DNA from: a virus
Taxonomy: Duplodnaviria; Caudoviricetes
Virus record (IMG/VR): IMGVR_UViG_3300017560_000009
Coordinates: 16,421-80,420 of that record
Direction: 5' to 3' (one strand)
Length of the DNA stretch: 64,000 bases
Below, in pieces: positions 41,113-63,680 of the stretch; positions within the stretch are counted from its first letter, which is position 1, and each line of letters begins with the position of its first letter. The notes below the pieces were generated by a model. It was given only the letters and a program-made list of their open reading frames with translations, made no database searches and had not been told where the DNA came from. The translations under genes and the position numbers were made by a program.

Positions 41113-41817
41113 TTACCTCTTTACAGGAAGCGGGCCGAGGGGATCATCTTCTCGGCGCATGTGACGTTTCAAGACCATCATGCCCAGGCTTTCAAGGGGC
41201 ATCTGGCTGAGCGTGTCGAAGTCCTCGACGCCCAGCTGCGTTGTGATCTTTTCAATCGGTTGAGTCACGATCAGATGCGGGGATCCGGTCATGATCAGAT
41301 TGCGGCGGCTGTTGTAGCTGATGTCTTTCAGGTCTTCCAACAGGCCGTGCTGGCGCACAGTCATCTGCGTGATGACCAGCGGTTGCACGTTGGTGCGGCC
41401 CAGCTCGATAGGGAGCCGTGCGGGGTTCACGAGTGTCCACGCGGCCTGCACGATAGGCTCAATCGGGCTGGAGAGCCGCGAGAGCGTGTACAGAGGGCGC
41501 AGCAGCTCGTTGCCGGCGTCTTCGATGAAGTACAGGCCAGGGGTGTACTGTTCCTTCGGGATCGGCAGCATGGCGCGAACCAGCGGATCCTGGGCGTATC
41601 GGCGGAACAGCTCCCAGTGGCGCGCATCCGGCACCGCCGCCGAGACCGGGAACATATGATTGCAGGTCTTGACGCCGTTGGGACGCACGCGGTAAGGGGA
41701 GGGCGCACGCAGCGACAGGAAGTTCACTGCGCCGCGCCCTTGATGGAGGTAAGCCACTCCGGTTTCGGTCCAGTGGACACCGAAGTAGGGGACTTCAATC
41801 TGCGTTTCTACGGTCAT
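41113..41817 (-). CDS. Hypothetical protein
   Basis: ATGA-coupled to the upstream HTH gene. Confidence 0.65.
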   Translation of the reverse strand: MTVETQIEVPYFGVHWTETGVAYLHQGRGAVNFLSLRAPSPYRVRPNGVKTCNHMFPVSAAVPDARHWELFRRYAQDPLVRAMLPIPKEQYTPGLYFIEDAGNELLRPLYTLSRLSSPIEPIVQAAWTLVNPARLPIELGRTNVQPLVITQMTVRQHGLLEDLKDISYNSRRNLIMTGSPHLIVTQPIEKITTQLGVEDFDTLSQMPLESLGMMVLKRHMRREDDPLGPLPVKR

Positions 41818-42212
41818 ATTTGCACCAGCTCGGCGATGGGTTTCTTCGTATAGGTGGAGATGTCCAGGAGATCGGTCAAGGTGACATCGAAGACACCTTT
41901 CTCTATGGCCGCAAGCTTGTGCGTTGTCCACCCGATCCTGGCCGCAGCTTCCTGACGGGTCTGGCGGATCTCCATGGAACGAGTGAAGGCCAGACGCTCA
42001 CCCAGCTTTTCATGGGTTCGGCTGATGGTGCTTTTCATCTTCCTTTCTTTGGGTCCGTTGAACTTCTCCCGGTCGGAGGCCTTGATACCACGCGCAGCTA
42101 GGATCTTCCTGACCAAAGGTTCGGAGATCTGGAACGACCTAGCGAGCGCGGGGGCCGAGGAACCCATAAGGTATCCATCGGCCACCTGTTGGTCGCGCTC
42201 GTCCTTCGTCAT
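41814..42212 (-). CDS. HTH (XRE/Cro-like) DNA-binding protein
   Basis: LGERLAFTR...TRQEAAARIGWTTHKLAAIEKG..DVTL..L XRE pattern, plus an N-terminal HTH-like segment. Confidence 0.75.
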   Translation of the reverse strand: MTKDERDQQVADGYLMGSSAPALARSFQISEPLVRKILAARGIKASDREKFNGPKERKMKSTISRTHEKLGERLAFTRSMEIRQTRQEAAARIGWTTHKLAAIEKGVFDVTLTDLLDISTYTKKPIAELVQI

Positions 42213-51728: not shown

Positions 51729-51765
51729 ATGTCCCTCGTCTGTGTGATGAAAGGTTCGTTACGAA

Positions 51766-52044
51766 CTACTCGGAATCGACGGGCTTGGCCGCTCCTTCGA
51801 ACTCCGCGTAGCTGGCCAGCTCTTTGATGAGGGCTTCCGCGAGATCCGGGTGGCCACGTTCAACCAGCGCGCCGACCACGCAGGCCATCAGCACGGCAGC
51901 GCGAAAGCCGTTGGTGCGCCGACCACCGATGACGACAGACGCCGCCCAGGGGACCGTGTTGCGTTGCTCGGGGCTGGGGCGCGTCAGGGCATCGCAGATG
52001 GAGCCGGCGCGGGCTTTGTAGTAGGGGAGGGTATGCAGGCTCAT
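51766..52044 (-). CDS. Hypothetical protein
   Basis: ATGA-coupled early ORF. Confidence 0.55.
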   Translation of the reverse strand: MSLHTLPYYKARAGSICDALTRPSPEQRNTVPWAASVVIGGRRTNGFRAAVLMACVVGALVERGHPDLAEALIKELASYAEFEGAAKPVDSE

Positions 52045-52277
52045 GCTGCCACCTGTTCGCGGCTGTGCGTGAATTCCAGGCGACGGCCGGAACCGGACTT
52101 GACCGCGTGGACCTCGTTGAACGCGGCGCAGGCGTTGTCCCATCCGGTTTTGGCCTTGGCCAGCGCCTCGGTGGCGCGGCGCATCGCCTCTTCGGCTTCG
52201 TTGTGCGCCAGAATGGCTTGCTGGTATTCCTTCAAGGCCTGGACGTGATTGGCCAAGGTCTGTTCTTTGTGCGTCAT
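52041..52277 (-). CDS. Hypothetical protein
   Basis: GGAG RBS; helical. Confidence 0.6.
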   Translation of the reverse strand: MTHKEQTLANHVQALKEYQQAILAHNEAEEAMRRATEALAKAKTGWDNACAAFNEVHAVKSGSGRRLEFTHSREQVAA

Positions 52278-52307
52278 GATGACTCCGTTTGTGTGCTGCG
52301 GGTTAGA

Positions 52308-52484
52308 TCATCCGATGACGATGTACACAGCATCGGACTTGTGGAAGGGCTTCTCGCCCACGCCTTCGTGCAGGTAGACGTGCCGCCCTTGCGAGGCGTT
52401 CATCTTCTGGAAGGTGTGATCATCGTGGAGGGGACGAAAGATCGTCCCCACCTTCAGATCTTCGAAGGTGGTGAGGTCGCTCAT
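52308..52484 (-). CDS. Hypothetical protein
   Basis: ATGA-coupled; TFEDLKVGTIF pattern. Confidence 0.55.
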   Translation of the reverse strand: MSDLTTFEDLKVGTIFRPLHDDHTFQKMNASQGRHVYLHEGVGEKPFHKSDAVYIVIG

Positions 52485-52765
52485 GCAGGCTCCAGTTGCT
52501 CGCGGTGTTCGGTGAACGACGCCGACCAGCGCATGCCGTGATCCGTGCGGATACCGTTGATCACGCAGCCGGTTTCGGCCGCGATGTGGTTGAGCACGGC
52601 TTGCGACAGCGGCCAGCACTTGAGCGACTTGTCGGTGTTGTCCACCGTATGGTCCGCCAAGATCTCGTTGATCTTGGGGACCATGGTTGGCGCACGGAGC
52701 CGGATGCGTTCGACCAGCTCGCGCAGCGAGTGGAAAGGCCCGCAGTCAGGAATGGCGTTGTCCAT
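52481..52765 (-). CDS. Hypothetical protein
   Basis: Start MDNAIP follows the upstream stop by 1 nt. Confidence 0.55.
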   Translation of the reverse strand: MDNAIPDCGPFHSLRELVERIRLRAPTMVPKINEILADHTVDNTDKSLKCWPLSQAVLNHIAAETGCVINGIRTDHGMRWSASFTEHREQLEPA

Positions 52766-52766
52766 G

Positions 52767-52946
52767 TCAGGCGTCCAGAAGGTTGTTGGCGACTGCGCAG
52801 TCGTTCCAGGCGGCGCGGGCCGTCGTGAACGTCTTGCCGCGTTCCTCCGGGAACAGCACCTTGAACCAGTAGAAGCCCTGGGACGAGTCCGCGACGGCGT
52901 AGCCAGCGGACTTGGCGAGGGATTCCGGGTTGTGTTTTCCACCCAT
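52767..52946 (-). CDS. Hypothetical 59-aa protein (below the ORF-track cut-off)
   Basis: MGGKHNPESLAKSAGYAV...NLLDA*; AAGGAG RBS; fills the gap between neighbours. Confidence 0.65.
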   Translation of the reverse strand: MGGKHNPESLAKSAGYAVADSSQGFYWFKVLFPEERGKTFTTARAAWNDCAVANNLLDA

Positions 52947-52957
52947 GACTTGCTCCT

Positions 52958-53215
52958 TTATTGATTGTTGACGACGAGCTTGAGGTAACGCACCGTGGCC
53001 TGGGGGACCGTGATGCGTCGGCGATGGCTGGTGTTGCGCGCCGAATCGAAACCGAGTCGGTACGCATCATCCAGATCTTGGCAAATGCCAGCGAGAGCGT
53101 GGCTCTGGCCGAGCGCATGGCCCAGCTGCGCATCGTTCCAGCCTTGCTGGAATGACAGGCAACGGCCCGCCTCGGTGTTGGCTGGGTTCAGATTGCGGTC
53201 GGCGACTTGTTCCAT
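52958..53215 (-). CDS. Hypothetical protein
   Basis: Operon packing. Confidence 0.55.
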   Translation of the reverse strand: MEQVADRNLNPANTEAGRCLSFQQGWNDAQLGHALGQSHALAGICQDLDDAYRLGFDSARNTSHRRRITVPQATVRYLKLVVNNQ

Positions 53216-53217
53216 GA

Positions 53218-53838
53218 TCAGTGGACCGTCCCGTTACCCGGCACGCGGTTGGGTTCGATGACCTGCTTGACGATCTCGTCGTATGCCTCGGTGCCGGGGG
53301 CATACTCGTGAGCGCGGTCCATGTCCGGCTCGCCGTCCTTGTCCAGCGGGATCACCAGCATCGGCACGGGGCCGTCCGAAGGCAGCACGCCCTTGATGGC
53401 TTCTTCGATCACGCTGGCCAGCCTGCGGCCCATGTTGTTGCGATGCTTGCGGTATTCCACGCCCATGAGATCCATCAGGAAGTGGCGGTCGGCGTTGCCA
53501 TCGGCCAGTTTCTCGGGCAGCGCGTCCAGCTTGATCGGAGGACGGTCGAGGTGGCCCAGGACGATGTTGGCGATCTCTTCGGTGGAGATGGGCGCTTCTT
53601 CGATGAAGAGACGCACGGCTTCGCACAGGAACGGTGCGAGCTTGACTTCATCATCGTCCTTCGTGACGCCGAGCGAGGCCATCGTGGCTTCGGCGCGCTC
53701 CACGATCTTGTCGCGCATCGGTTCGATCTCTTCGCCACGGAAGTAGCGGCCTTGGCGCGTGGCGGTGTTGAAGAGCACCATGGCGCAGCAGCCGATGATG
53801 ATGCCGGTGTCCGACGCTTTAGCGGTGAGGTAGTTCAT
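53218..53838 (-). CDS. Hypothetical protein
   Basis: AAGGA RBS; palindrome 20 bp upstream. Confidence 0.75.
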   Translation of the reverse strand: MNYLTAKASDTGIIIGCCAMVLFNTATRQGRYFRGEEIEPMRDKIVERAEATMASLGVTKDDDEVKLAPFLCEAVRLFIEEAPISTEEIANIVLGHLDRPPIKLDALPEKLADGNADRHFLMDLMGVEYRKHRNNMGRRLASVIEEAIKGVLPSDGPVPMLVIPLDKDGEPDMDRAHEYAPGTEAYDEIVKQVIEPNRVPGNGTVH

Positions 53839-53873
53839 GTTGCTTCCTTGAGGGATGGTTCGTTACGAACCGA

Positions 53874-54221
53874 TTACGAGCGGTGGCGCATGCCGGAGGT
53901 GGCATGCAGATGCTGGAAGGTGGCGTCCGAGATGTGCCAGAAGGTGATCTCACGGGTGTAGATCTCACCTTCATGGGAGATGCAGGCACGGATCCTCAGA
54001 CTGGTCCACTGATACTCGTGTCCCATGTCGTAATCCACGCCGGCCTTCCTGTAGCTCTCCAGCCACGGGACCGGATGGCCATGTGCCTCGGAGGCGGCGT
54101 CGGCGTGTTCCTTCATGACGCGGTTGAAGGCCGCAGTTTCGAACACGACGAGCCGGCCGTCGAGTTCCCAGTGGCCACCGTTCCAGCCGTCCACGAATTT
54201 CAGTTGCATGTCATTCCTCAC
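53874..54221 (-). CDS. Hypothetical protein
   Basis: Operon packing. Confidence 0.55.
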   Translation of the reverse strand: MRNDMQLKFVDGWNGGHWELDGRLVVFETAAFNRVMKEHADAASEAHGHPVPWLESYRKAGVDYDMGHEYQWTSLRIRACISHEGEIYTREITFWHISDATFQHLHATSGMRHRS

Positions 54222-54498
54222 GTTCTTTGGCTTTCATGGCGTGCCATGCAATGGCCTTCGCCTCGTAAGCCGTGATGATCACCTGGAGCTTCTTCTCGCA
54301 GGCCTGGGCCAGCCGCAGGCTGTGGAACTCGGCCCATTCTTCCCACTTGTCGTAGGAGTTGGAACCGGATTCAACCGAATACTCCCTGGCTGCGTACACC
54401 TCGATCTCCAGCTCCCTGGAGATCGAGGCATCTTCGCGCAGCATGTCAGCCAGCTCCTGGCTTCCCGAGATGCTGACGTGATAGATCGTTGTGATCAT
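54211..54498 (-). CDS. Hypothetical protein
   Basis: ATGA-coupled. Confidence 0.6.
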   Translation of the reverse strand: MITTIYHVSISGSQELADMLREDASISRELEIEVYAAREYSVESGSNSYDKWEEWAEFHSLRLAQACEKKLQVIITAYEAKAIAWHAMKAKEREE

Positions 54499-55487
54499 TG
54501 GTTGGGAACCTCCCAGTTGAACCCGGCCGCGAGCATGTCCAGCTTCATCGCTTCGATCAGCGCGGGCAGACGCGCCTCCAACAGTGCCTTCAGCTCTTCA
54601 CGCGGCAGGCACAGTTGCTCGTCGGTGGCTTCGGGCCAGCAGGCGCTGCTGCGAGCGAAGTTCAGCTCGCGTTCCTTTCCTTCGCCAAAGAGCGTCGGCA
54701 CGGTCTCGAAGCGGATGAAACGACGATTGGCGCGACGGGCCTTGTATTCCCGGTCGAACACTTCAGCCCAGGCTTGGGCTTCGACTTCGGTGTCGAACGG
54801 GCATTCATGCCACTTGGCCTCGAATCCCTTCAGCGTGAACTTCGGAGTGAAGTTGTATTCGGTGGCCTTGGTCTTGACGTACTCTACCGCCACCACTTCG
54901 AAGTCGTAGTGATCGGGGTTGGAACGCGGCGTCTTCGCCATGAAGTCCAGACGGGCCATCGCCCAGCGCAGGAAGCTTTGCTTGATCTCCTGCGGGATCG
55001 GGCTGTCTCCCACATACATGACCGTCTTCTGGTGCTTCTCGCCGGGGTGCGGCTCGCCCTTACGCAAGCCCCAGTGGTCACGGTCGCCAGCGTGGTACAG
55101 CGCATTGGCGGGATAGTGCATCGGACCATCGGTGGACGCGAGATTCCAGCGCTGGAGATGTGCCAGCTCGGGAAAGTGCTTGGCGATCTCTTCGTCGCAA
55201 CGTCCGCAGCTTTCGATACGATCATCGGCGCGGATGCCGAGCTTCGGGTTGTAGATCGTGCCGGTCACGCAGAAGTCGTTGTGGCCGTTCTTGCAGTTGT
55301 CATCGAAGCGCACTTCGACAACGATGGTCTTGCGGGTGCCATCTTCGTTGAACTGGCGGCGGGCCTTGAAGACCTGATGCATGTACGTGATCTTGCCAAG
55401 CCGGCCGGGGGCCGAGTACGGGATACGGGTCATGCGGCCTTCGACACCGAGCATGGTGAAAGCGAATTCAGTGGCGGTATCAGTCAT
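54495..55487 (-). CDS. Conserved-looking phage hypothetical protein
   Basis: 330 aa; DDNCKNGHNDF...CGRCDEEIAKHFPEL...STDGPMHY.AN.LYH; AAGGA RBS. Confidence 0.8.
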   Translation of the reverse strand: MTDTATEFAFTMLGVEGRMTRIPYSAPGRLGKITYMHQVFKARRQFNEDGTRKTIVVEVRFDDNCKNGHNDFCVTGTIYNPKLGIRADDRIESCGRCDEEIAKHFPELAHLQRWNLASTDGPMHYPANALYHAGDRDHWGLRKGEPHPGEKHQKTVMYVGDSPIPQEIKQSFLRWAMARLDFMAKTPRSNPDHYDFEVVAVEYVKTKATEYNFTPKFTLKGFEAKWHECPFDTEVEAQAWAEVFDREYKARRANRRFIRFETVPTLFGEGKERELNFARSSACWPEATDEQLCLPREELKALLEARLPALIEAMKLDMLAAGFNWEVPNQ

Positions 55488-55526
55488 GATGCGTCCTTGT
55501 GTGATGTGTGATGTGGGAGATACAGC

Positions 55527-56135
55527 TTACGCCGCTTCTTCCTCGGTTTCCGGGACTTCTTCTTCCAGCGTGGCCATGCGCACGGTGGAGAAGAGGCCAG
55601 GGAGTTCGGAAATGGCGCGTTCGCGCAGGTCGTTCATGGGCAGCAGGTCGAGATCGCCTTCATCCCCCGTGAGATTGTCCACGGTGTAGGTGCCTTGCTT
55701 CACCATGGAAATGCCGTACTTGAGGACCGCGTTGTGGTCTTCGGCATTCGAATACCGCTGCGTGGCCAGAATGTCTTTGATGATCGCCGGCCGGCCGGTG
55801 TAGTAGACCAGCTGGCCAATAGCGAACTTTCCGGGCGGCGCGTCTTCAAGGTACTCCTTCACGTAACGGTCGTGATAGGAGGACTCGTTGACCAGCGCTT
55901 CGGGCAGCTGGAGCAATCCCTTGAGGTGGACTTCGCCACCACGGCTGGCGATCAGGCGGCACATACCCAACAGGTACAGGCTGCAAAAGCTGGACAGATA
56001 CCCGGTGCTGTTCTGGGAGAGCGGGGTGGCCTTGGCCACGTCGGTCGTGCCTTCGGAAGAGCCTTGCACTTCCCAGACGATGACGCCGGCCTTGTTGATA
56101 TCTTGAGCGCGGATGAAGGGGTAACGATTAGCCAT
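55527..56135 (-). CDS. Hypothetical protein
   Basis: Start MANRYP overlaps the upstream stop. Confidence 0.7.
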   Translation of the reverse strand: MANRYPFIRAQDINKAGVIVWEVQGSSEGTTDVAKATPLSQNSTGYLSSFCSLYLLGMCRLIASRGGEVHLKGLLQLPEALVNESSYHDRYVKEYLEDAPPGKFAIGQLVYYTGRPAIIKDILATQRYSNAEDHNAVLKYGISMVKQGTYTVDNLTGDEGDLDLLPMNDLRERAISELPGLFSTVRMATLEEEVPETEEEAA

Positions 56136-56319
56136 GGTTCTTCTCTTCTTCGATGAGTTCGTTGAGGTCAGTGGTTTCGAGCCGAGTGAGTTCGTTACGA
56201 ACCTCGTCCACTTCTTCGGCTCTGGTGTCAATAGGAGACTTGCGTTGCAGCATCGACAGCTTGGTCAGCAATCCGGCTCGTCTGGCGAGAATGGGCAGGA
56301 TGTCCCGAAACGTGATCAT
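56128..56319 (-). CDS. Hypothetical protein
   Basis: ATGA-coupled. Confidence 0.55.
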   Translation of the reverse strand: MITFRDILPILARRAGLLTKLSMLQRKSPIDTRAEEVDEVRNELTRLETTDLNELIEEEKNHG

Positions 56320-56591
56320 GGCACCACCGGCATTCCATCAACCGGGGTTTCTGTGGTGCCGAGGCCGACCACGGGATGCTCATGCCCTTGAACAAACAGG
56401 CAGATCCCGTGACCGGCGTTCAGCTGGGCCAGCTCGTTCTCGCTGGGACGCCAGACGGAGACCATCCAGTTGTGACCTCCGTGTTGTTGCTCGATAACAG
56501 GCAGCGGCGAACAATCTCCGTGTATTTTCGGATCCCAGCCTTGGGGAACACCGAGTACACGAGTCGCGTTTGCAGGGTGGAGAATATCCAT
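56316..56591 (-). CDS. Hypothetical protein
   Basis: LG.P.GWD....G.C..LP...MVSVWRPS..EL..LN.G..I.L...G..HP pattern; AAGGA RBS. Confidence 0.75.
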   Translation of the reverse strand: MDILHPANATRVLGVPQGWDPKIHGDCSPLPVIEQQHGGHNWMVSVWRPSENELAQLNAGHGICLFVQGHEHPVVGLGTTETPVDGMPVVP

Positions 56592-56794
56592 GGTTCATCC
56601 TTGAAGGTGTCAAGTTGCATCTTGTACAACATTTCTGCCACGCCCGCCAGCACTACGGTGTAAGGCTCCACCGTGGCGACGGATTGGTTGTAGCAGGCCG
56701 TGATGATCTGCTCGGCCCAGACTTCGCTGTCAACGGCCAAGTGGATCCGCCAATGAAGTCTTTCGACCTCATCGCGGATTTCGTGCAGGTTCAT
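56420..56794 (-). CDS. Hypothetical protein; 3' third overlaps the next gene
   Basis: Starts 2 nt after the upstream stop; 172-nt same-strand overlap. Confidence 0.4.
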   Translation of the reverse strand: MNLHEIRDEVERLHWRIHLAVDSEVWAEQIITACYNQSVATVEPYTVVLAGVAEMLYKMQLDTFKDEPWIFSTLQTRLVYSVFPKAGIRKYTEIVRRCLLSSNNTEVTTGWSPSGVPARTSWPS

Positions 56795-56796
56795 TT

Positions 56797-57195
56797 CTAC
56801 TCGCGGTAGTTGAGGAATAGGTGCGGGAAGGCTTCTTCGAATCGGCGACGGTTCAAGCTGTCGCTCTTGATCCAGAGGTGGGCCATCATCACGGCTTGAC
56901 CGCCGCCCTTGGACAAGATGCTGTGAATGGCTTTCAGCTTCTCGTCTTCGTCCATCATGGCCACGGCTGCGGCCTTGATCACGTCATCTTCACGGCCGGA
57001 GCGCATCGAAGCGTGGGCGAAGGCTTTCATCGCTTCGAGGATCTTGGGCGTCCAGCCGATGATGCCGTGCCATGACAGGTATTCGTCCAGCAGGGTGGAG
57101 GCGAGCGAGTTGGTGATATCGAAGTCGGTCTGACCACGCTCGCGCAGATCGACCAAGATGTGGTCTGGGATGAGATTGATGTTGATCAGGTGCAT
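56797..57195 (-). CDS. Hypothetical protein
   Basis: GAGGG RBS; AD..N..R...AFP-like C-terminus. Confidence 0.7.
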   Translation of the reverse strand: MHLININLIPDHILVDLRERGQTDFDITNSLASTLLDEYLSWHGIIGWTPKILEAMKAFAHASMRSGREDDVIKAAAVAMMDEDEKLKAIHSILSKGGGQAVMMAHLWIKSDSLNRRRFEEAFPHLFLNYRE

Positions 57196-57202
57196 GATGC
57201 CC

Positions 57203-57406
57203 TCACTCGGTGGGATATAGGGTCCGACGCATCAAGTCGATGGAGTCGGCGAAGCTGTGACCGTTGTTGCGCAGCCGCATGAGAAAGGGCGCTCCCTTCT
57301 CCTTTATCTCTTCCTGGATCTCACGAGTCACAGGCTGGCCTTTGACGTGGCCGAGCACTTGATCGAGTTCCTTGAGGATCATTGCGTCTGTGTGCTGAAG
57401 TTTCAT
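57203..57406 (-). CDS. Hypothetical protein
   Basis: Start MKLQHT follows the upstream stop. Confidence 0.55.
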   Translation of the reverse strand: MKLQHTDAMILKELDQVLGHVKGQPVTREIQEEIKEKGAPFLMRLRNNGHSFADSIDLMRRTLYPTE

Positions 57407-57408
57407 GA

Positions 57409-57630
57409 TCAAACCTTTGGTTTGGTTACGCGGCCCGCTATCGGGATGGCCGCAATGGCAAATGCCATCATGATGATCAATGACCATGCCAAGCCGCCGA
57501 GATCGTATGGCAGATGGAACGATGACACGTTATCCGCCAGCCACCAGCTCACGTCGAGCACAGCCTGCATGCCCACGATATAGGCGATGAGGCTGAGCAC
57601 GAAGATGATGGCGTACTTGAGATAGGTCAT
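57409..57630 (-). CDS. Small two-TM membrane protein
   Basis: Two hydrophobic segments and a basic C-terminus. Confidence 0.65.
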   Translation of the reverse strand: MTYLKYAIIFVLSLIAYIVGMQAVLDVSWWLADNVSSFHLPYDLGGLAWSLIIMMAFAIAAIPIAGRVTKPKV

Positions 57631-57702
57631 TAGGCATCCGTTTGGGTTACACCCAACATGATGCCATGAAGATTGAATCTTGAAAAGTTCGTTACGAACC
57701 TT

Positions 57703-58062
57703 TCAGAAGTTGTAGGTGATGACCGTGCGCACAACTGCCTCGCGCTTGCCAACGAAGCGCACGTCAGCGGAATAGTTGGCGCACCCGCAGCAGTCATACT
57801 CGTGGGCGCAACCATGACGGCTGAACGCATCGTGCAACGCCTGCGTCCAGATCTTGCGGTTCCAGGTTTTCGGGACGATGACGCGCATGACGTACACCGG
57901 ACCATGCGACGGCTCTTCGTAGTAGGCCTCCGGCTGGTTGACCTTGCGCCGGCCCAGCACCTTGACCTCGCCGATGTAGGCGTGGTCATCGAGATCCTTG
58001 AACGTGCCGACGTATTTGTGGGTCAGCCGCAGGTACACATCTTGATGGTGTGCCATGGTCAT
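57703..58062 (-). CDS. Hypothetical protein (CAHEYDCCGC motif)
   Basis: ATGA-coupled; probable metal-binding Cys/His cluster. Confidence 0.7.
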   Translation of the reverse strand: MTMAHHQDVYLRLTHKYVGTFKDLDDHAYIGEVKVLGRRKVNQPEAYYEEPSHGPVYVMRVIVPKTWNRKIWTQALHDAFSRHGCAHEYDCCGCANYSADVRFVGKREAVVRTVITYNF

Positions 58063-58301
58063 TTCTTCCTTTCGACGCAGACGAGGTAGCGAATGTCGCC
58101 TGCTTTGCTGTTGGAGACGGCAGTGAAAAGGTTCGTGACGAACTCTTTGCCTTCCATGCCTTTCGATCTGCGGCTGGCTGTCGGGTTGAGCCGGTGCATG
58201 ATGCGGTTGTAGTTGGCAACGTCGGTCTCGATGTACCGACGTTCGCCCACCTCCAGCTGCATCAGCAGGCCTTGCCAGCTATCGCGGCGGGGTCCGGTCA
58301 T
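58059..58301 (-). CDS. Hypothetical protein
   Basis: Start MTGPRR overlapping the upstream gene end. Confidence 0.55.
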   Translation of the reverse strand: MTGPRRDSWQGLLMQLEVGERRYIETDVANYNRIMHRLNPTASRRSKGMEGKEFVTNLFTAVSNSKAGDIRYLVCVERKK

Positions 58302-58551
58302 GGTGGAGGGTGTCCAAAAGGAGCAGCAGCCCGAGCTTTTCCAGGCCGTTGAGCGGGCCGCTGAGCACGGAGGTACTGGCATGTGCCTCCAGCTGCGAAA
58401 TCGCCTCAGCGACCGTTTCCTGGGCCACAAAGCCATGGTTGCGCAGCTGGAGCCGGACCATGGGCAGCAGGCCTTTGGGGACGACCTCGGTTTTCAGGCG
58501 CTGCACCAGCTCGCCGAAGCTGCCTTCAGGGTAGATCTGATCTTCAGTCAT
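58279..58551 (-). CDS. Hypothetical protein
   Basis: GGAG RBS. Confidence 0.6.
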   Translation of the reverse strand: MTEDQIYPEGSFGELVQRLKTEVVPKGLLPMVRLQLRNHGFVAQETVAEAISQLEAHASTSVLSGPLNGLEKLGLLLLLDTLHHDRTPPR

Positions 58552-59002
58552 CTGCCACTCCTGCCGCGATAGCCAGACGCAGGATGGCTTCCCACTTCAG
58601 GCTGTAGGTTTTGCCCGTGCGCTCGCAACGGATCATGGGAGACGCGGAAGATGACATGAGCAGTTCGAACTTGCCCAGCGCGGGATCCGCGCATTCCGCG
58701 CCGCCGACGTGTTGAGTGATCATCAGCACTTCGGGTCCATAGATGTTGCCGGCGCTGGCGGTGTAGCGCTCGGCGATCAGCTCGCCGATCTTGCGCATCG
58801 CGCCTTCGGAACGCACGAGATCCACTTCGGCGTCGTAGCTGCCGCCACGGGTCACGCGGAGCGGCATATCCATGACGATCACGCCGTGTTCGTCTTCCAG
58901 GCGCACCCATGGCAGGTTCTCGGGACCGACCCGCAGCTCTTGCGGGATCTTATTGGCCTTGTGGGGCAGGGGAGGCCGACGATCTTGAGCACGTTTGACC
59001 AT
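58544..59002 (-). CDS. Hypothetical protein
   Basis: Start MVKRAQ with AAGGA RBS. Confidence 0.65.
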   Translation of the reverse strand: MVKRAQDRRPPLPHKANKIPQELRVGPENLPWVRLEDEHGVIVMDMPLRVTRGGSYDAEVDLVRSEGAMRKIGELIAERYTASAGNIYGPEVLMITQHVGGAECADPALGKFELLMSSSASPMIRCERTGKTYSLKWEAILRLAIAAGVADD

Positions 59003-59006
59003 GATG

Positions 59007-59420
59007 TCACCATCCTTCGTGTTGATCACGCGGCAGGCCGCAATGCTGGCACACGCGGTGCGTTTTCGGGTCTTGTTCATACCCGTTGCACTTGCCCTGG
59101 ATCGTGCCTGCCAGTGGTTTCACGAGCGAGCGCAGCGCCGTGTCGATGTGCTCGTCGGTCATGTATTCGTACAGCTCGGCCACCAACACGCGCCGCTTCA
59201 TGACGTAAGCATCCTGCGTGATGCCCTCGAACTGGAATTGCGGGCCGACGCATTGGTCGCCCCACATGCAGTCCCAGCGAAAGCGACGGTTGAGATCCTT
59301 CACTTGGTCGATGCGCAGGATGCTGGAGTCCTTGGTGCGGTACAGCTCGCGGTTGTGGTCCAGGTTCGTGCATTTGATGAGCGCTCCCAGGCGCTCCAGA
59401 TGCTCGGCTTTGATCTTCAT
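59007..59420 (-). CDS. Hypothetical protein with C-terminal CxxC motif
   Basis: D.HIDTALR motif; CQHCG; palindrome 15 bp upstream. Confidence 0.65.
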   Translation of the reverse strand: MKIKAEHLERLGALIKCTNLDHNRELYRTKDSSILRIDQVKDLNRRFRWDCMWGDQCVGPQFQFEGITQDAYVMKRRVLVAELYEYMTDEHIDTALRSLVKPLAGTIQGKCNGYEQDPKTHRVCQHCGLPRDQHEGW

Positions 59421-59447
59421 ATCTTGCCCCATTGGTTCGTTACGAAC

Positions 59448-59732
59448 CTAGTTGATGTTGCCTTCGAAAATGTCCCAGCACGCCATCCACAGCAGGTACA
59501 TCCGTGCCGTGGTGTCATCCATGGTCTCGGCATCGTCAATGCCGTACTCACGCAGGATGGTGCGCATGTCTGTCATGTTCAATGCAGCCAGCTGGATGGC
59601 CATGCGCTCGTCCAAAACAGCTTGACGGGCGGCCGGCGTGTTGTCGCCAGTGCGAGCCACACTGTCCACAATGTCTTGAGGGATGTTGAGTTCCAAGCGG
59701 CCACAGCCGCTGGTCCAGTAGCGATCAGGCAT
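59448..59732 (-). CDS. Hypothetical protein
   Basis: GGAG RBS; L.EYG...LW.ACWDI motif. Confidence 0.7.
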   Translation of the reverse strand: MPDRYWTSGCGRLELNIPQDIVDSVARTGDNTPAARQAVLDERMAIQLAALNMTDMRTILREYGIDDAETMDDTTARMYLLWMACWDIFEGNIN

Positions 59733-59907
59733 TGCGGATCTCCTTGTTGTCGCGCACCTGTTGACCATCCTGGAACATCAGGACTTGCGAGCCGGTTTCG
59801 CGGCGAGACTTCTTGTCGTGTTCGTTGTACGCGGCGCGGGCCTGCTTGCCGTTGTGGCCATCGAACACGACTTGGCCATCGACAGTGATCTTGAATTGTT
59901 GGCGCAT
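59725..59907 (-). CDS. Hypothetical protein
   Basis: Operon packing. Confidence 0.6.
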   Translation of the reverse strand: MRQQFKITVDGQVVFDGHNGKQARAAYNEHDKKSRRETGSQVLMFQDGQQVRDNKEIRNA

Positions 59908-59909
59908 GA

Positions 59910-60371
59910 TTATTCGTCCTGGACGGAGAGTAAGACGGTGGTGAAGAGGCTCAGCATATCGTCGGGCAAATCTCCGACGCCGGCCGGTTCGCTGCTGTAA
60001 AGCGTGCGCTCGAATTCATCTGTGAACGAAGGCTCGAAGATGTAGACGTGGTTAAGCGGCTCATCGTCTTCCACGCTCTGGTGGATCGAAATGCGCATCT
60101 TGTTGTGGATCGAGTTGCGGTAGAGCGTGACTTTCTCCACCCCCAGTTTATGGGTCAACGTACCCATCATGGTCTCTATCTGGAAGTCGGCCATGGAGTA
60201 GTCGCGCACGGCTTCGGCAAGGTCGAAGGAATAGGCCTTCAGCTCATCGCGGTTCAGCGTGTGGGACGCCGTGATGAAGTGCTGGTTCAAGCTGGCCAGA
60301 CGTTGATCAACCACGGCTTTGGAAAGGCTGCGACGGTAGACCAACGAGGCGAGTTTTTGGATGAAATTCAT
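59910..60371 (-). CDS. Hypothetical protein
   Basis: Start placed at MNFIQ. Confidence 0.6.
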   Translation of the reverse strand: MNFIQKLASLVYRRSLSKAVVDQRLASLNQHFITASHTLNRDELKAYSFDLAEAVRDYSMADFQIETMMGTLTHKLGVEKVTLYRNSIHNKMRISIHQSVEDDEPLNHVYIFEPSFTDEFERTLYSSEPAGVGDLPDDMLSLFTTVLLSVQDE

Positions 60372-60406
60372 TTCAGGTTCCCGGTAACAAGTTACAGGTT
60401 GATCGG

Positions 60407-60850
60407 TCAATACGGGACTTCGAGAGTCAGAAACTGGTCGAACAACTCGCCGATATACGACTTGATGTCGTTTCGGTTAGGACCATGAACCTTCAGCTCG
60501 AAACCATGGGCAAGCGACGGCTTGACGACTACCTGATGCTCGGTCCAGCCTTCGTAATAGCCGTGATCGCTCATGTGCTGAAAGTTCGTAACGAACACAA
60601 GGCGATCAGGACGGGAATCGTGCAGTTGAAACTGCGTGCCGGAGTTGAACCCGCTACCACTCGGGGCGTACTCCTTGGTCAGTTCCTTCATGCGCTCAGC
60701 ATGGCGATTCAACCAGTCATCGCGGGAATCACCTTGAGTGGAGGCGAGGCGATTGTTGTACGCTACCAAGCGCATGGCCATGACTTGGTACAGCGGACGC
60801 TTTTGCGTCAGGACTTGGGGGATGACTTGGGATTCAACCGGTTGAGTCAT
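60407..60850 (-). CDS. Conserved-looking phage hypothetical protein
   Basis: PSGSGF..GT...RLVF...F.HM...GYY.GWTEH.V.V.PSL..GF.L...G.NRN.IK.Y pattern. Confidence 0.8.
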   Translation of the reverse strand: MTQPVESQVIPQVLTQKRPLYQVMAMRLVAYNNRLASTQGDSRDDWLNRHAERMKELTKEYAPSGSGFNSGTQFQLHDSRPDRLVFVTNFQHMSDHGYYEGWTEHQVVVKPSLAHGFELKVHGPNRNDIKSYIGELFDQFLTLEVPY

Positions 60851-61200
60851 GGTAGTTCCGTTTGAGTGATGAGCCTGCCCACGGCACGTTTGCCGGGATT
60901 TTGTCGCTGCGGGCCAGCTGGCGGGGTACGGAGCATAGCGCAATAGGGCTAGGGCTTGCGTACCAGGGCTGGGAGGGGCGAATTAGGGCAGGTGGCTACC
61001 TGGGTAGCGGGGGATGGGATTGGGGCGCTGTACGGGCTTATTTTGGGCTAGGCCGTTTGGATGACCAGGATGGCCACACGACGCTACAGGACCATCGAAA
61101 GGATGATGGCCATGCAGGCGAGGCTGGCGACGGCGGCAAGCTCGAAAACCTCGGTCTTACTCCAGGGTTTGGAGCCGGAGCGGAGCCTGGAGGGGGTCGA

Positions 61201-61770
61201 AAAGTTGGGGTGGTACGCGGATTCTCGGAGCGGGAGCAGGAGCGCGGAAGAGGGGGGATTTATCATATAAGAGGCTCGCAAGTGCTTGATTTATAAGGAG
61301 GTGGAGACGGAGCAGGAGACGGAGGTGGAGCGGGAGCGGGGAGAAAGTTGTGGTGGTACAAATGCTCTATTTCTACTCTATAGAGAATATAAAAAACCCT
61401 ATAAATAGCTGTCCTTTACTTCAAGAAAATAGAGGTTGTACCACCACAACTTTGAAGATCGAATCTTCATGGTCAGAAAAAAGTTTGACCAGAAAAAATT
61501 GCCCAACAAAATCAATAGGTTAGAGCAGAAGTACCCTATAAATCGAAAACCTATAATTGACCAGTGGGCCGAAATCCTTGTGGTCCAACACAAAGTTGGG
61601 GATTTATAGGGTTTTTATTCGCGCGCCTTGCGCGGATCATGGATGGCTCAAATACCACCACCACTTTTGCAGTGCAGCATGGTTCGTTACGAACCTTTGA
61701 ACTCGCTGCAAAGCCGCGCCAGTGCTCACGATGGCCCAAATCCCAACTTTTCCACCAAGACCCTATAGGC
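61201..61770. promoter_or_regulatory. AT-rich, iteron-like repeat region (origin or packaging/terminal control region candidate)
   Basis: 18-bp perfect inverted repeat 61344-61361 / 61436-61453 around 74 bp of AT-rich DNA; ACCCTATAAAT at 61396, 61533 and (reverse) 61602. Confidence 0.55.
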
Positions 61771-61965
61771 GTGGGCGGGGTAGCGCGAGGGATAGCACGT
61801 CCCCTGTTTCCGAGGGGCCGGATCCTGGCGTGGGCGGGGTAGCGGCACTCCTACCTTTTCGTGACGCCCTAAAACGTGGCGCAGAAACAACACGCTACCA
61901 CGCCCACGCGCAAACCCTAATTGACTTTTCCCTTTTTCTTACTTTTCCACTCCCGAGACAACAGC

Positions 61966-62274
61966 CTACGCACGGCACCACGCCGCACTCAACCTTGCCG
62001 CCATTTGCGCCAGGGAATCGGCGACTTCAACCCGCTTGCGCGTGGTTTTGCGCTTCTGCCGCACCTTATCGACTTGGCTTTTCTCTTCCAACCAGTCGAA
62101 TTCGCCGCTCAACTCCAGTTGCCGGACCTCTTCCCGCATCAGTTGCCGGCTCAGAATCGCCTGCCGATGCTCGGTCCTGGAGCGGACGATCAAGTCCCGC
62201 TTCCACGCCAATTGCGCAGACACGCCGCTGCTGATGACCTTGGAATAGTTTCCAATCGTCGGATCGTTACTCAT
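61966..62274 (-). CDS. Hypothetical basic protein
   Basis: Palindrome 23 bp upstream as for other early genes; RBS weak. Confidence 0.45.
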   Translation of the reverse strand: MSNDPTIGNYSKVISSGVSAQLAWKRDLIVRSRTEHRQAILSRQLMREEVRQLELSGEFDWLEEKSQVDKVRQKRKTTRKRVEVADSLAQMAARLSAAWCRA

Positions 62275-62422
62275 GGGGAATTTCCAGACTTGAAAAGTTC
62301 GTTACGAACTTTGGGGATCAGAAATCGGAATTGGAAACGCTCAATTCCAACTTGACCGTGGACGGGTATAGGACGAGCCGCTACCACGCCCACGGCCAGG
62401 GGACGCGCCTTATAGAGAGGCG

Positions 62423-62450
62423 AAAAAAGCCCCTGCCGCTAGGGCAGGGG
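62423..62450 (-). terminator. Rho-independent terminator
   Basis: CCCCTGCC-5 nt-GGCAGGGG followed by CTTTTTT on the minus strand. Confidence 0.75.
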
Positions 62451-62488
62451 AAAGGCGGGGCGACCAGGGACGCCGCCCCGCCGGGGCG

Positions 62489-63181
62489 TTACGCTGCGAC
62501 CGCTTCAGCTTCAGCGTGGACCGAGTAGCCCATGTCCACGATATGGGCCATAAGGGACTTGATGAAAGCGGCGCGGTCTTCTTCGCTCATGGCTTGCATT
62601 TGAGCCGCGATGGTAGCCGCGTAGGCTTCAGGACCGGACGCGGCCGCCAAAGGCGCGTCCGGTTCGCTTTCGGCCGTGGGCGTGGCCGGGGTAGCGGCCG
62701 GGGCAACAGGTGCGGGCGTTTCCACCTTCGCGCCACGCTTCGCATTGCCCCCCGCAAACCCGAAGGTAGTCCAGAGGGTTTCCACGTCAGACACCTTGCA
62801 ATCGTTGACCATCCAGGCAATGACCGCCTTGATAGCATCCGCCTGGGCCATCTCATGCAGCGCCAGCACATTCAACCCGCGCTCAGCCGCGCATGCCGCA
62901 ATCGCTACCCCCTTTTCCGCGTATTTCTTGAAACGGGCGAAATACACGTCACGCGCCGCGTCCCGCGCCGCGTCATCCATCTTTTCCCAGGCCTTGCCGT
63001 GGTCGGCCATGGCGGCGTCCAGCTGCAAAGCCTTGCGCAGCTCAGCCGCGTAACCGCGCACATCCGCCTTGCCATCCAGCACGGCATGGGCCACGACGGC
63101 GGCATATCCGCCCAGGTCGGCACGCATGGCCTTAACGATGGCGGCGCGGGTGGTGGTGATATTGAGGGTTTGCGTTTGCAT
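62489..63181 (-). CDS. Hypothetical Ala-rich protein, first gene of the leftward early block
   Basis: AAAGGA RBS 8 nt before ATG 63181; palindrome 24 bp upstream; Pro/Ala/Thr linker. Confidence 0.75.
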   Translation of the reverse strand: MQTQTLNITTTRAAIVKAMRADLGGYAAVVAHAVLDGKADVRGYAAELRKALQLDAAMADHGKAWEKMDDAARDAARDVYFARFKKYAEKGVAIAACAAERGLNVLALHEMAQADAIKAVIAWMVNDCKVSDVETLWTTFGFAGGNAKRGAKVETPAPVAPAATPATPTAESEPDAPLAAASGPEAYAATIAAQMQAMSEEDRAAFIKSLMAHIVDMGYSVHAEAEAVAA

Positions 63182-63437
63182 GATGATCATCCTTTAGGCG
63201 TTTGGTTCGTTACGAACCTTTGTAAACCGTAGGGGCGAAGTTGCCCCGGGCCTCGTGGCCCTGGCACCAGGGAGACATTCCCCGATTGCTTAGGTGTAAG
63301 TGTACCTAGATATTTTGCGACCCTCAAGCACATTAATGGCCAGGATGTCAAGTCCTGTTTTGTAAAAATTCTGAAAAAAATAACTATAGGAAAGCACCCA
63401 TTCTGTAGTATCCTGTCGCTACCCCGCCCACGCCCAC

Positions 63438-63508
63438 GGGATTCGGCCCCACGCCCAGGCGCGCTGCCCAACCAGGAACCGGGATTCGGCCCCACGCCCA
63501 GGCGCGCT
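63438..63508 (+). repeat. 28-bp direct repeat
   Basis: GGGATTCGGCCCCACGCCCAGGCGCGCT at 63438 and 63481. Confidence 0.85.
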
Positions 63509-63680
63509 ACAGGAGCGCCCACCAGGATCGGCTCCAGGCCCGCGCAGCGCCCGCCAGAACCCGGATCTGAGCCGCGCACCAGAGGGAGTAGGGCGCTTCA
63601 CCCGCCCTCCCCTACCGAAAATCCCAGAAGGGGAGGGCGGGGCAACCAGCCACCTCAACCCCAAAATCAGCGACCCCAAC

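What the first reader, a model, noticed from the sequence alone, without database searches (positions are those of the whole stretch)
51754..63217. Ten copies of the palindrome GTTCGTNACGAAC confined to the early region - a dedicated regulon or DNA-entry signal
Seen: 10 exact copies (centre T x8, A x1, G x1) within 11.5 kb and none noticed in the other 52 kb; chance expectation is about 0.004 per window. Five lie 15-26 bp upstream of start codons (51728, 53838, 59420, 62274, 63181). Three are kept inside ORFs (two read FVTN), and several extend to longer dyads (e.g. TGAAAAGTTCGT-T-ACGAACCTTTCA at 57682). Inference: (i) operators of a phage repressor/activator shutting off early genes; (ii) 5-8 bp stem, 3-nt loop hairpins acting as RNA processing/translation signals or N4-style ssDNA hairpin promoters; or (iii) protective/injection-stop or recombination sites for this variable region.
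Basis: partly seen in the sequence, partly recalled or inferred. Interest (0 to 1): 0.72.

Follow-up and report, generated by a model that had tools for sequence, protein, structure and literature searches.

The report
Repeated operator palindromes in phage early genes
A JWF-like Achromobacter phage carries ten exact copies of a 13-bp palindrome only in its early-gene arm, and because relatives carry their own versions in the same place, these are most likely binding sites of a phage-encoded DNA-binding regulator, a feature seen before in other phages but never explained.

Summary
GTTCGTNACGAAC occurs 10 times in the window (51754-63217) and nowhere else in the 80.4-kb genome; shuffles give 0.

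The genome is a JWF-like Achromobacter siphovirus. All sites lie in the first 12 kb of the leftward early arm, and two lie in the terminal repeat. The 12 fixed bases are identical at every site in phages 2-1 and JWF, while aligned flanks are about 68% identical.

Thirteen further lineages carry a different palindrome in the same arm, for example GTTCAA-N-TTGAAC, GTGCGAC-N-GTCGCAC and GGTCCCG-N4-CGGGACC. Some have tandem arrays before the first early gene.

In two close relatives the half-sites GTTCGT and GTTCAT combine freely. In another lineage the centre flips orientation. The core RNA hairpin is weak (-2.5 kcal/mol). This favours recognition of double-stranded DNA by a symmetric protein over an RNA hairpin, a terminator or an N4-type promoter.

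The binder is not identified. The best candidate is the phage's Arc/Mnt-family ribbon-helix-helix protein, because the P22 mnt operator has the same 6+1+6 layout.

The likely role is distributed repression of the early arm. The closest precedents are the unexplained 17-bp palindromes of Cluster O mycobacteriophages and the L5 stoperators. I file it as a new member of a known kind.

The parts
51754..51766 (.). Palindrome site 1. It overlaps the TAG stop of the upstream gene and lies 25 nt before the ATG at 51728.
   Evidence: Orthologous exact sites exist in phage 2-1 and JWF. A JWF homology block ends exactly at 51766.
53858..53870 (.). Palindrome site 2, 3 nt after a TAA stop and 19 nt before the ATG at 53838.
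   Evidence: In 2-1 and JWF the central TAA of the orthologous site serves as the upstream gene's stop codon.
56190..56202 (.). Palindrome site 3, inside a 63-aa gene (reads V-R-N-E), 58 nt before the next start.
   Evidence: It is kept in three phages although neighbouring codons differ; only the centre base changes (N to D in JWF).
57687..57699 (.). Palindrome site 4, 3 nt after a TGA stop. It has the longest dyad, 11 bp on each side, and lies 56 nt before the next start.
58131..58143 (.). Palindrome site 5, inside a gene (reads F-V-T-N). The centre base is a synonymous position.
59435..59447 (.). Palindrome site 6, directly after a TAG stop and 14 nt before the ATG at 59420.
60584..60596 (.). 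Palindrome site 7, in the middle of a 144-aa gene (reads F-V-T-N). It is the only site in this window with centre T on the sense strand.
   Evidence: The coding status of both flanks is shown by third-position substitutions against 2-1.
61682..61694 (.). Palindrome site 8, in the roughly 1-kb AT-richer non-coding stretch near the inner edge of the terminal repeat.
   Evidence: The same site is present in 2-1.
62297..62309 (.). Palindrome site 9, in the terminal repeat, 120 nt after a strong terminator and 22 nt before the second early gene.
   Evidence: The JWF and 2-1 records carry this site twice, once in each terminal repeat.
63205..63217 (.). Palindrome site 10, in the terminal repeat about 130 bp from the physical genome end, 23 nt before the first early gene (14 nt if the ATG at 63190 is used).
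   Evidence: Relatives have 2-3 tandem palindromes at this position.
62489..63190 (-). First early gene (g1, 230-233 aa, function unknown). It is a second-rank candidate for the binder.
   Evidence: It is one of only two early-arm genes kept across the group with 65% DNA-polymerase identity, at about 30% identity. It has no Pfam hit and only an unannotated PHROG. The model is helical (pLDDT 78.5) with no fold match. Its family has 21 clusters among 1.84 billion proteins.
61966..62274 (-). Second early gene (g2, 102 aa, function unknown), in the terminal repeat.
62430..62450 (-). Intrinsic terminator between g1 and g2: an 8-bp GC-rich stem followed by a T run.
   Evidence: JWF annotates the equivalent terminator.

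Best explanation
The ten palindromes are operator-type binding sites on double-stranded DNA for a symmetric (dimeric or tetrameric) sequence-specific protein that the phage most likely encodes itself. One site sits in the leader of the first early gene, one sits before the second, and the others sit at cistron junctions or inside genes of a long early transcription unit with few recognisable promoters. When occupied, they most likely repress the whole early arm together: they block RNA polymerase at the leader and act as elongation roadblocks further along, which would shut off early genes once the regulator accumulates. Shown here: the sites are real, exact, confined to the early arm, under base-by-base purifying selection, and replaced by other palindromes in related lineages. 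Inferred: that a protein binds them, that the effect is repression, and which protein it is. The leading candidate is the Arc/Mnt-family ribbon-helix-helix protein encoded on the opposite strand inside the structural module, at bases 12961-13164 of the whole genome record, outside this window.
For: 1. Ten copies against 0 expected, all within the last 12 kb of the genome.
2. All 12 fixed bases are identical at all 29 sites in this phage, 2-1 and JWF. Aligned flanks of 13 orthologous site pairs, which include two further relatives, average 68% identity.
3. The three sites inside genes keep the motif at synonymous positions.
4. Thirteen other lineages carry a different palindrome in the same arm:
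- GTTCAA-N-TTGAAC (G001, G002, G006)
- GTTCAC-N-GTGAAC (G003)
- GTGCGAC-N-GTCGCAC (G004)
- GTGCAG-NN-CTGCAC (G005, G009)
- GGTCCCG-N4-CGGGACC (G010)
- TTACT-N5-AGTAA (Lumi)
- TTTACC-N3-GGTAAA (Seuss)
- GGGGTAACGTTACCCC (KB12-38)
- ATTTC-NN-GAAAT (G011, a looser case)
.
5. G003, G004 and G005 have 2-3 tandem copies 28-41 bp apart just before the first early gene, like operator arrays.
6. In the close relatives L272 and L275 the half-sites GTTCGT and GTTCAT combine freely. L272 has 3 symmetric AT sites, 1 symmetric GC site and 6 hybrids, and 4 hybrids would give an A.C mismatch in sense RNA. Position 5 is therefore read per half-site and is not base-paired.
7. In this phage, G001, G004, G005 and KB12-38, symmetry extends to bases next to the dyad centre, which cannot pair in a hairpin.
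8. In G010 the 4-bp centre reads GAAA in 7 sites and TTTC in 5 on the same strand.
9. Only 2 sigma-70-like sites were found in 16 kb, fewer than in shuffles, and none lies next to a palindrome.
10. The phage encodes an Arc-family protein (Pfam Arc, E 2.2e-6). The annotated P22 mnt operator reads GGTCCAC-G-GTGGACC, with the same 6+1+6 layout and the same AGGT flank.
11. Phages with the same palindrome have the same Arc-like beta-strand (FTLR in three, FTVR in three, STLR in two). Most different palindromes go with different strands.
Against: - No binding, transcript or phenotype data exist. No RNA run could be used.
- Leader arrays contain spacing variants (centres of 0, 2 or 3 bases where 1 or 2 is standard). 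A hairpin tolerates such variants more easily than a rigid dimer does.
- The A-run/T-run flanks give a terminator-like shape.
- G003 (3 of 11 sites) and Seuss (1 of 5) have asymmetric centres.
- The Arc-like link is confounded by shared ancestry.
- If aligned to P22 Arc Q9/N11/R13, the presumed base-contacting residues (A, T, R) hardly vary between lineages with different palindromes.
- G004 and G005 share the strand STLR but have different palindromes.
- KB12-38 (a partial genome) has palindromes but no detectable Arc-like gene. G015 has a probable Arc-like gene but no palindrome family was found.
- None of the roughly 70 early and middle proteins has a recognisable helix-turn-helix domain.
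- A host factor cannot be excluded.
Confidence: 0.55

Rival explanations
1. The sites act as RNA stem-loops in the early polycistronic mRNA. A protein or ribonuclease would recognise them to control translation, processing or stability of the downstream cistron.
For: - Six of ten sites lie between a stop codon and the next ribosome-binding site.
- In Seuss the palindrome contains the Shine-Dalgarno sequence 1-5 nt before the ATG, and in Lumi many sites overlap start codons.
- Centre A is preferred on the sense strand, 22 of 29 sites.
- Spacing variants would be tolerated as loop-length changes.
Against: - The core hairpin is only -2.5 kcal/mol, and with flanks it ranges from -2.5 to -11.
- The Lumi stem would be 5 A-U-rich pairs with a variable 5-nt loop.
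- Stems never show compensatory change, whereas the would-be loop is the variable part.
- Hybrid sites in L272 and L275 give A.C mismatches.
- The G010 loop would read GAAA or UUUC interchangeably.
- Three sites lie deep inside genes.
- The centre-A bias is partly explained by the central TAA serving as a stop codon and by sense-strand A excess.
- No Rfam family matches.
Confidence: 0.12
2. The sites are weak intrinsic terminators or attenuators that grade expression along the early arm. They would be kept uniform within each genome by concerted evolution rather than by a binding protein.
For: - The A-run + hairpin + T-run shape is seen in several lineages, for example AAAGTGCGACGGTCGCACTTTT in G004.
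- The scan flagged site 58131 as terminator-like.
- No other terminators are annotated in JWF between 64.7 and 80.6 kb.
Against: - Stems are 5-6 bp and the T run is only 3-4 bases, absent at several sites.
- G010 has no T run.
- Sites in the middle of genes would truncate them.
- Exact identity across three phages with 76-84% nucleotide identity in this arm is not expected for terminators, which tolerate compensatory change.
- Tandem arrays before the first gene make little sense for terminators.
Confidence: 0.08
3. The sites bind a host protein, or serve a DNA-level function unrelated to transcription. Examples are control of stepwise genome entry, protection of the first-entering end, or priming and replication signals.
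For: - The sites are confined to the arm next to one physical end and include the terminal repeat.
- Phages of different hosts have different palindromes.
- The P4 alpha-type primase-helicase family is known from the literature to bind GTTCAC-type iterons, and this phage has such a primase.
Against: - Closely related lineages carry different palindromes, which fits a fast-evolving phage factor better than a conserved host factor. The hosts of these metagenomic lineages are unknown.
- The primase-helicase is evenly conserved along its length, with no hypervariable DNA-binding end.
- No ParB N-terminal domain is present.
- Placement at cistron junctions in four distant lineages points to gene expression.
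Confidence: 0.12
4. The sites are recombination linkers that promote exchange of early-gene cassettes between related phages, like the promoter-stem-loop cassettes of T4-type phages.
For: Five of 36 homology-block ends against 2-1 and JWF fall within 15 bp of a site, where about 1 is expected. The early arm is the most variable part of the genome.
Against: - Those ends are also gene junctions, where mosaic breaks fall anyway.
- Most gene-content differences are not bounded by sites.
- A 13-bp identity is short for homologous recombination.
- No recombinase is linked to the sites.
- Relatives with different palindromes could not exchange by this route, yet each keeps its own set.
Confidence: 0.05

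Closest known systems
17-bp repeats of Cluster O mycobacteriophages (TGTTCGG-N3-CCGAACA; PMC4351075)
   Same: Both are invariant inverted repeats with a free centre and occur in many copies. Both are densest in the leftward operon at the right genome end, with about one-third inside coding regions. Neither is tied to predicted promoters, and both occur in phages without an integrase. The authors predicted a dimeric DNA-binding protein and left the function unknown. The half-site core GTTCG is even shared.
   Different: Cluster O has 34 copies spread over the whole genome, against 10 confined to the early arm and terminal repeat here. The spacing differs (7+3+7 against 6+1+6). The phage family and host phylum are unrelated. 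Diversification of the palindrome between lineages was not described for Cluster O.
Stoperators of mycobacteriophage L5 and other Cluster A phages (PMC9283540, PMC6550527)
   Same: Both comprise many copies of a 13-bp site in short intergenic spaces of long operons. Stoperators are proposed to stop transcription elongation as well as initiation, and site and repressor specificities diversify between related phages.
   Different: Stoperators are asymmetric. They are bound by a monomer with two domains, they work in one orientation only, and they belong to the immunity repressor of temperate phages. The sites here are palindromic, and no such repressor or integrase was seen.
P22 Mnt repressor and its operator (Arc/Mnt ribbon-helix-helix family)
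   Same: The annotated mnt operator GGTCCAC-G-GTGGACC has the same 6+1+6 dyad and the same AGGT flank, and it differs from the G003 palindrome at one symmetric position. This phage encodes an Arc-family protein with the F-x-x-R-x-P strand and the R-x-x-N-x-E-I helix motif. Like P22 mnt and arc, its gene sits inside the late structural gene region, here on the opposite strand.
   Different: P22 has a single mnt operator overlapping one promoter. Here there are ten sites, most of them far from any promoter. Binding of the Arc-like protein to these sites is untested.
Conserved inverted repeats bound by the phiC31 repressor (from my own knowledge: Ingham et al. 1994, Nucleic Acids Res 22:821; not retrieved here)
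   Same: Highly conserved palindromic operators are repeated in intergenic regions of the early region.

Membership tests
Multi-copy dyad-symmetric repeats of the Cluster O mycobacteriophage type | Invariant inverted-repeat arms with a variable centre, present in many copies | tested here: met
   Ten of 10 sites here and 29 of 29 across three phages have identical arms, and the centre base varies.
Multi-copy dyad-symmetric repeats of the Cluster O mycobacteriophage type | Concentrated in the leftward operon at the right genome end, with a sizeable share inside coding regions and no link to promoters | tested here: met
   All sites lie in the last 12 kb. Three of 10 are inside genes. No promoter-like site lies next to any palindrome.
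Stoperators (Cluster A mycobacteriophages) | Asymmetric 13-mer whose orientation follows the direction of transcription | tested here: not met
   The sites are perfect palindromes. Only the centre base is asymmetric, and it flips between orthologous sites.
Stoperators (Cluster A mycobacteriophages) | Many copies in short intergenic spaces within operons | tested here: met
   Six of 10 sites lie between a stop codon and the next start.
Arc/Mnt ribbon-helix-helix repressor with its operator | The phage encodes a protein of the Arc family | tested here: met
   Pfam Arc PF03869, E 2.2e-6, 27.8 bits against a cut-off of 20.4, for the 67-aa product at bases 12961-13164 of the genome record.
Arc/Mnt ribbon-helix-helix repressor with its operator | Operator with Mnt-type dyad (6+1+6 core with AGGT flank) | tested here: met
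   The P22 mnt operator was read from the annotated record and compared with the site consensus. Ten of 16 symmetric positions are identical.
Arc/Mnt ribbon-helix-helix repressor with its operator | The protein binds the site, and its specificity residues change with the operator | tested here: inconclusive
   The same beta-strand goes with the same palindrome in eight phages, and six other strand types go with other palindromes. This follows phylogeny, one strand type (STLR) goes with two palindromes, and there are exceptions in KB12-38 and G015. Binding itself is not testable with these tools.
Intrinsic (rho-independent) terminators | Stable G+C-rich stem followed by a run of U | tested here: not met
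   The core is -2.5 kcal/mol. Only one of the 10 sites passed the terminator scan, whereas the true terminator at 62430-62450 did.
N4-type single-strand hairpin promoters | Hairpin upstream of the transcription start, read by a phage virion RNA polymerase | tested here: not met
   No RNA polymerase appears in the JWF annotation or in the Pfam scans. Not every open reading frame was scanned. Three sites lie inside genes, and in Seuss the palindrome contains the ribosome-binding site of the next gene.
ParB/KorB-type palindromic sites | Partner protein with a ParB N-terminal domain | tested here: not met
   No ParB_N match in the whole genome at E 0.1, while the control genomes scored.
T4-type promoter-stem-loop cassettes | A conserved early promoter attached to each stem-loop | tested here: not met
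   No conserved -35/-10 pair flanks the sites.

The most novel reading that the evidence does not exclude
A whole family of roughly 80-kb terminal-repeat siphoviruses silences its early arm through a distributed network of Mnt-type operators. These would be read by an Arc/Mnt-like ribbon-helix-helix repressor encoded in the late region. Operator and repressor would co-diversify between lineages, so that each lineage has a private 'immunity-like' specificity although the phages look virulent. This would also explain the unexplained Cluster O palindromes as the same strategy.
Probability: 0.22. Interest if true: 0.7.

Novelty: new member of a known kind. Interest (0 to 1): 0.55.

Why it matters
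Multi-copy palindromes in the early arms of apparently lytic phages have been described, in Cluster O mycobacteriophages, but never explained. This case adds a second, unrelated phage family, two of whose members (JWF and 2-1) are cultured isolates. It adds a series of natural specificity variants, down to a single-position half-site change. It also offers a concrete candidate binder that can be tested with a gel shift. If the sites prove to be roadblock operators, they would show how a phage without its own RNA polymerase shuts off some 40 early genes at once. They would also give a compact set of orthogonal repressor-operator pairs. Achromobacter phages of this group are being considered for therapy, so knowing their early-gene control is useful background.

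Tried and rejected
- **Early-arm proteins.** Pfam and PHROGs scans of all 30 early-arm proteins found no DNA-binding domain; every PHROG hit is of unknown function.
- **Middle-region proteins.** Pfam scans of 30 more proteins gave only Arc, KTSC, DUF3268, DUF2399 and PanD-like hits, plus a dNMP-kinase hit and a glycine-rich-domain hit below its cut-off.
- **First early gene (g1).** The AlphaFold model has pLDDT 78.5. The best Foldseek hit against PDB has E 3.6 and the best VIA-align hit has Z 5.0, so no fold is assigned. The protein atlas gave only unnamed clusters. A profile search of 1.84 billion proteins found 21 clusters, all in the same phage group.
- **272-aa protein (41113-41931).** It is present in palindrome-bearing lineages and absent from TCUP2199, but has no Pfam hit and no atlas lead.
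- **Primase-helicase as origin binder.** No hypervariable region was found.
- **ParB.** Absent.
- **Single-protein locus searches.** They found only JWF.
- **Sequencing runs.** No RNA holder is listed, and only assembled contigs are available, so transcript ends could not be examined.
- **Literature.** No paper in the library contains the motif. The JWF genome paper (Arch Virol 2017) is not in the library.
- **Rfam.** Nothing relevant.
- **Lineages without a palindrome family.** None was found in Acinetobacter phage TCUP2199, G012, G013 or G015 with exact-arm searches. Degenerate motifs may have been missed.

Full report
**What is there**

None of 100 shuffles gave any match. Relaxing to two mismatches adds only chance-level hits, so every real copy is exact. 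The window is bases 16421-80420 of an 80,420-bp virus record, and the remaining 16 kb has no copy. The confinement to the last 12 kb therefore holds genome-wide.

**Genomic setting**

- The closest records are Achromobacter phages 2-1 (84% identity over 60% of this region) and JWF (76% over 12%).
- In both records the two outermost sites occur at both ends with identical spacing. This shows direct terminal repeats of about 1.54 and 1.47 kb.
- The present record is a collapsed, permuted assembly. Sites 62297 and 63205 lie in the terminal repeat, and the physical end maps near 63342-63356.
- JWF's annotation shows structural genes on the + strand. One long leftward arm runs from the right end through about 40 small unknown genes into the replication genes.
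- The palindromes occupy the first 12 kb of that arm. 'Early' is an inference from this layout.

**Anatomy of the sites**

- On the gene-sense (-) strand the consensus is AAAG-GTTCGTAACGAAC-CTTT.
- Six sites sit between a stop codon and the next start. They abut or overlap the stop and lie 14-25 nt (one 56 nt) before the start.
- In JWF and 2-1 the central TAA of some sites is itself the stop codon of the upstream gene. Together with the A excess of the sense strand, this partly explains why A is the commonest centre base (22 of 29).
- Three sites are truly inside genes. For 60584 the substitution pattern against 2-1 falls on third codon positions on both sides.
- One site lies in a 1-kb non-coding stretch.
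- A strong terminator (62430-62450) separates the first two genes. Only two weak sigma-70-like sites exist in 16 kb, and neither is next to a palindrome.

**Selection**

All 29 sites in the three Achromobacter phages keep the 12 fixed bases. Aligned flanks of 13 orthologous site pairs, which include two further relatives, average 68% identity. The sites inside genes keep the motif at synonymous positions. No site shows a compensatory pair change.

**Relatives**

DNA-polymerase searches found a wide family of 75-85-kb genomes. I fetched 17 of them whole. The palindrome differs by lineage but occupies the same arm, and where terminal repeats are included in the record it is in the repeat as well.

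| Lineage | Palindrome | Copies |
|---|---|---|
| G001, G002, G006 | GTTCAA-N-TTGAAC | 4-8 |
| G003 | GTTCA-N3-TGAAC | 11 |
| G004 | GTGCGAC-N-GTCGCAC | 10 |
| G005, G009 | GTGCAG-NN-CTGCAC | 7-8 |
| G010 | GGTCCCG-N4-CGGGACC | 15 |
| Lumi | TTACT-N5-AGTAA | 17 unique |
| Seuss | TTTACC-N3-GGTAAA | 5 unique |
| KB12-38 | CGGGGTAACGTTACCCCG | 10 |

. G011 has a looser ATTTC-NN-GAAAT set.

- Most lineages share the A-run/T-run flanks and the placement after stop codons and before ribosome-binding sites.
- G003, G004 and G005 have two or three tandem copies just upstream of the first early gene.
- No palindrome family was found in Acinetobacter phage TCUP2199, G012, G013 or G015.

**DNA or RNA?**

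Four observations point to recognition of double-stranded DNA by a symmetric protein.

1. In the close relatives L272 and L275 (first gene 68-71% identical) the sites read GTTC(G/A)T-N-A(C/T)GAAC, and the two half-sites combine freely. In L272, three sites are symmetric AT, one is symmetric GC and six are hybrids. L275 has one further symmetric GC site. Four hybrids would put an A.C mismatch in the sense RNA, and the other two would do so in the antisense strand. There is thus no pairing constraint at that position. It is read half-site by half-site.
2. In this phage, G001, G004, G005 and KB12-38 the symmetry reaches the bases next to the dyad centre, which could not pair in a hairpin.
3. In G010 the 4-bp centre reads GAAA or TTTC almost equally on the sense strand.
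4. The core RNA hairpin is worth only -2.5 kcal/mol, and the flanks add very unevenly. The Lumi version would be five A-U-rich pairs around a variable loop.

Against this stand the spacing variants in leader arrays, the terminator-like flanks and a few asymmetric centres. I therefore keep RNA-level and attenuator models as minority rivals.

An N4-type promoter is excluded for practical purposes. No phage RNA polymerase was seen, several sites are inside genes, and in Seuss the palindrome carries the Shine-Dalgarno sequence of the next gene.

**Who binds?**

- Sixty early and middle proteins have no recognisable DNA-binding domain.
- Only two early-arm genes, the two in the terminal repeat, are shared across the group with 65% DNA-polymerase identity. 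The first (g1) is about 30% identical and always follows the leader sites. Its confident helical model matches no known fold, and its family is tiny. It remains a positional candidate only.
- The one recognisable regulator is a 67-aa Arc-family ribbon-helix-helix protein. It is encoded on the opposite strand inside the structural module, much as P22 mnt and arc sit within the late structural gene region.
- Reading the P22 record shows the annotated mnt operator as GGTCCAC-G-GTGGACC. It has the same 6+1+6 dyad and the same AGGT flank as the consensus here, and it is one symmetric position away from the G003 palindrome.
- Arc-like beta-strand against palindrome:

| Beta-strand | Palindrome arm | Phages |
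|---|---|---|
| FTLR | GTTCGT | this phage, 2-1, JWF |
| FTVR | GTTCAA | G001, G002, G006 |
| FTTR | GTTCAC | G003 |
| STLR | GTGC... | G004, G005, G009 |
| FSVR | GGTCCCG | G010 |
| SSIR | TTACT | Lumi |

.

This is consistent with co-variation, but it is confounded by phylogeny. The residues expected to touch bases hardly change. STLR goes with two different palindromes. KB12-38 and G015 are exceptions. I put the Arc-like protein at roughly one chance in three of being the binder.

**Mechanism proposed**

A symmetric phage protein accumulates after infection and occupies the leader sites and the internal sites. This stops host RNA polymerase at the start of the early arm and at successive cistron junctions. 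That accounts for four things: the restriction to one transcription arm, the indifference to promoters, the tolerance of positions inside genes, and the private specificity of each lineage. The steps from 'binding site' to 'repression by roadblock' are inference.

**Comparison with known systems**

- The nearest described feature is the 17-bp TGTTCGG-N3-CCGAACA repeat of Cluster O mycobacteriophages. It has 34 invariant copies, densest in the leftward right-end operon, with a third in coding regions and no promoter association. The phages have no integrase, and the function is unknown (PMC4351075).
- L5-type stoperators work the way I propose, but they are asymmetric, orientation-dependent and bound by a monomeric immunity repressor (PMC9283540). 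This is therefore not a member of that family.
- KorB/ParB-type sites are excluded by the absence of a ParB domain.
- No paper in the library mentions this motif.
Site 61682 lies in it. I did not test the origin idea.

**Verdict**

This is a new member of a known but mechanistically unsolved kind of phage feature. A testable candidate regulator and a useful natural series of specificity variants come with it.

Noticed in passing
window 61800-63356: This stretch corresponds to the 1.47-1.54-kb direct terminal repeat of JWF and 2-1. The record is a collapsed, permuted assembly. The physical end maps next to an inverted repeat, CAGGA-cttgaca-TCCTG, at 63341-63357 that contains a perfect TTGACA.
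   Followed up: partly
window 63299-63327 (- strand): A weak promoter-like pair, TTGAGG-17-TACACT, lies about 85 nt upstream of the first palindrome. The -10 region (ATATCTAGGTA...) is conserved in G005, where it reads TATAGT. It falls below the scan tool's threshold.
   Followed up: partly
window 61770-61910, 62380-62400 and 63430-63540: A family of GTGGGCGTGG(T/G)AGCG-like repeats, and a tandem duplication of about 60 bp (GCGCCTGGGCGTGGGGCCGAATCCCG...), lie around the terminal repeat edges. Their function is unknown.
   Followed up: no
window 61300-61660: An AT-richer non-coding stretch holds several TATAGGG/CCCTATA motifs and the only scan-positive promoter-like site on the - strand (61415-61386).
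   Followed up: no
genome bases 3469 and 3512 (before the window) and window 39256; L272 5481, 5525, 9597, 11435, 11462, 11818: A second, independent 13-bp palindrome family, TTTATC-N-GATAAA, sits in the divergent region before the terminase gene. In L272 it also sits near the terminal-repeat genes. G003, G005 and G009 have ACTATC-N-GATAGT instead. It is probably the site of another regulator.
   Followed up: partly
G003 about 82480-82510, G004 about 27470-27500, G005 about 40475-40510 (loci L259, L261, L270): The leader of the first early gene holds a small hairpin after TAATC(A/G)G whose stem differs between lineages with compensatory changes (GTGCG/CGCAC, GGTAC/GTACC, GGCGC/GCGC). Unlike the palindromes, it looks like a true RNA structure.
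   Followed up: no
KB12-38 (loci L160-L163), e.g. 34109, 37235, 41979, 50646, 76816: A strand-specific element, ATTAAACTAAAA, occurs 10-12 times before ribosome-binding sites. It follows the palindrome at some places and stands alone at others.
   Followed up: no
JWF 71207-71209 and 77584-77586; phage 2-1 73065-73067: The central TAA of the palindrome is used as the stop codon of the upstream gene, and at JWF 76941 the motif forms the last codons (W-F-V-T-N-F-stop). This shows how tightly the sites are packed into gene junctions.
   Followed up: yes
window 41113-41931 (- strand): A 272-aa protein of unknown function lies next to the helicase. It is present in all palindrome-bearing lineages tested, including KB12-38 and Seuss, and is not detected in TCUP2199. 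It has no Pfam hit and no atlas lead.
   Followed up: partly
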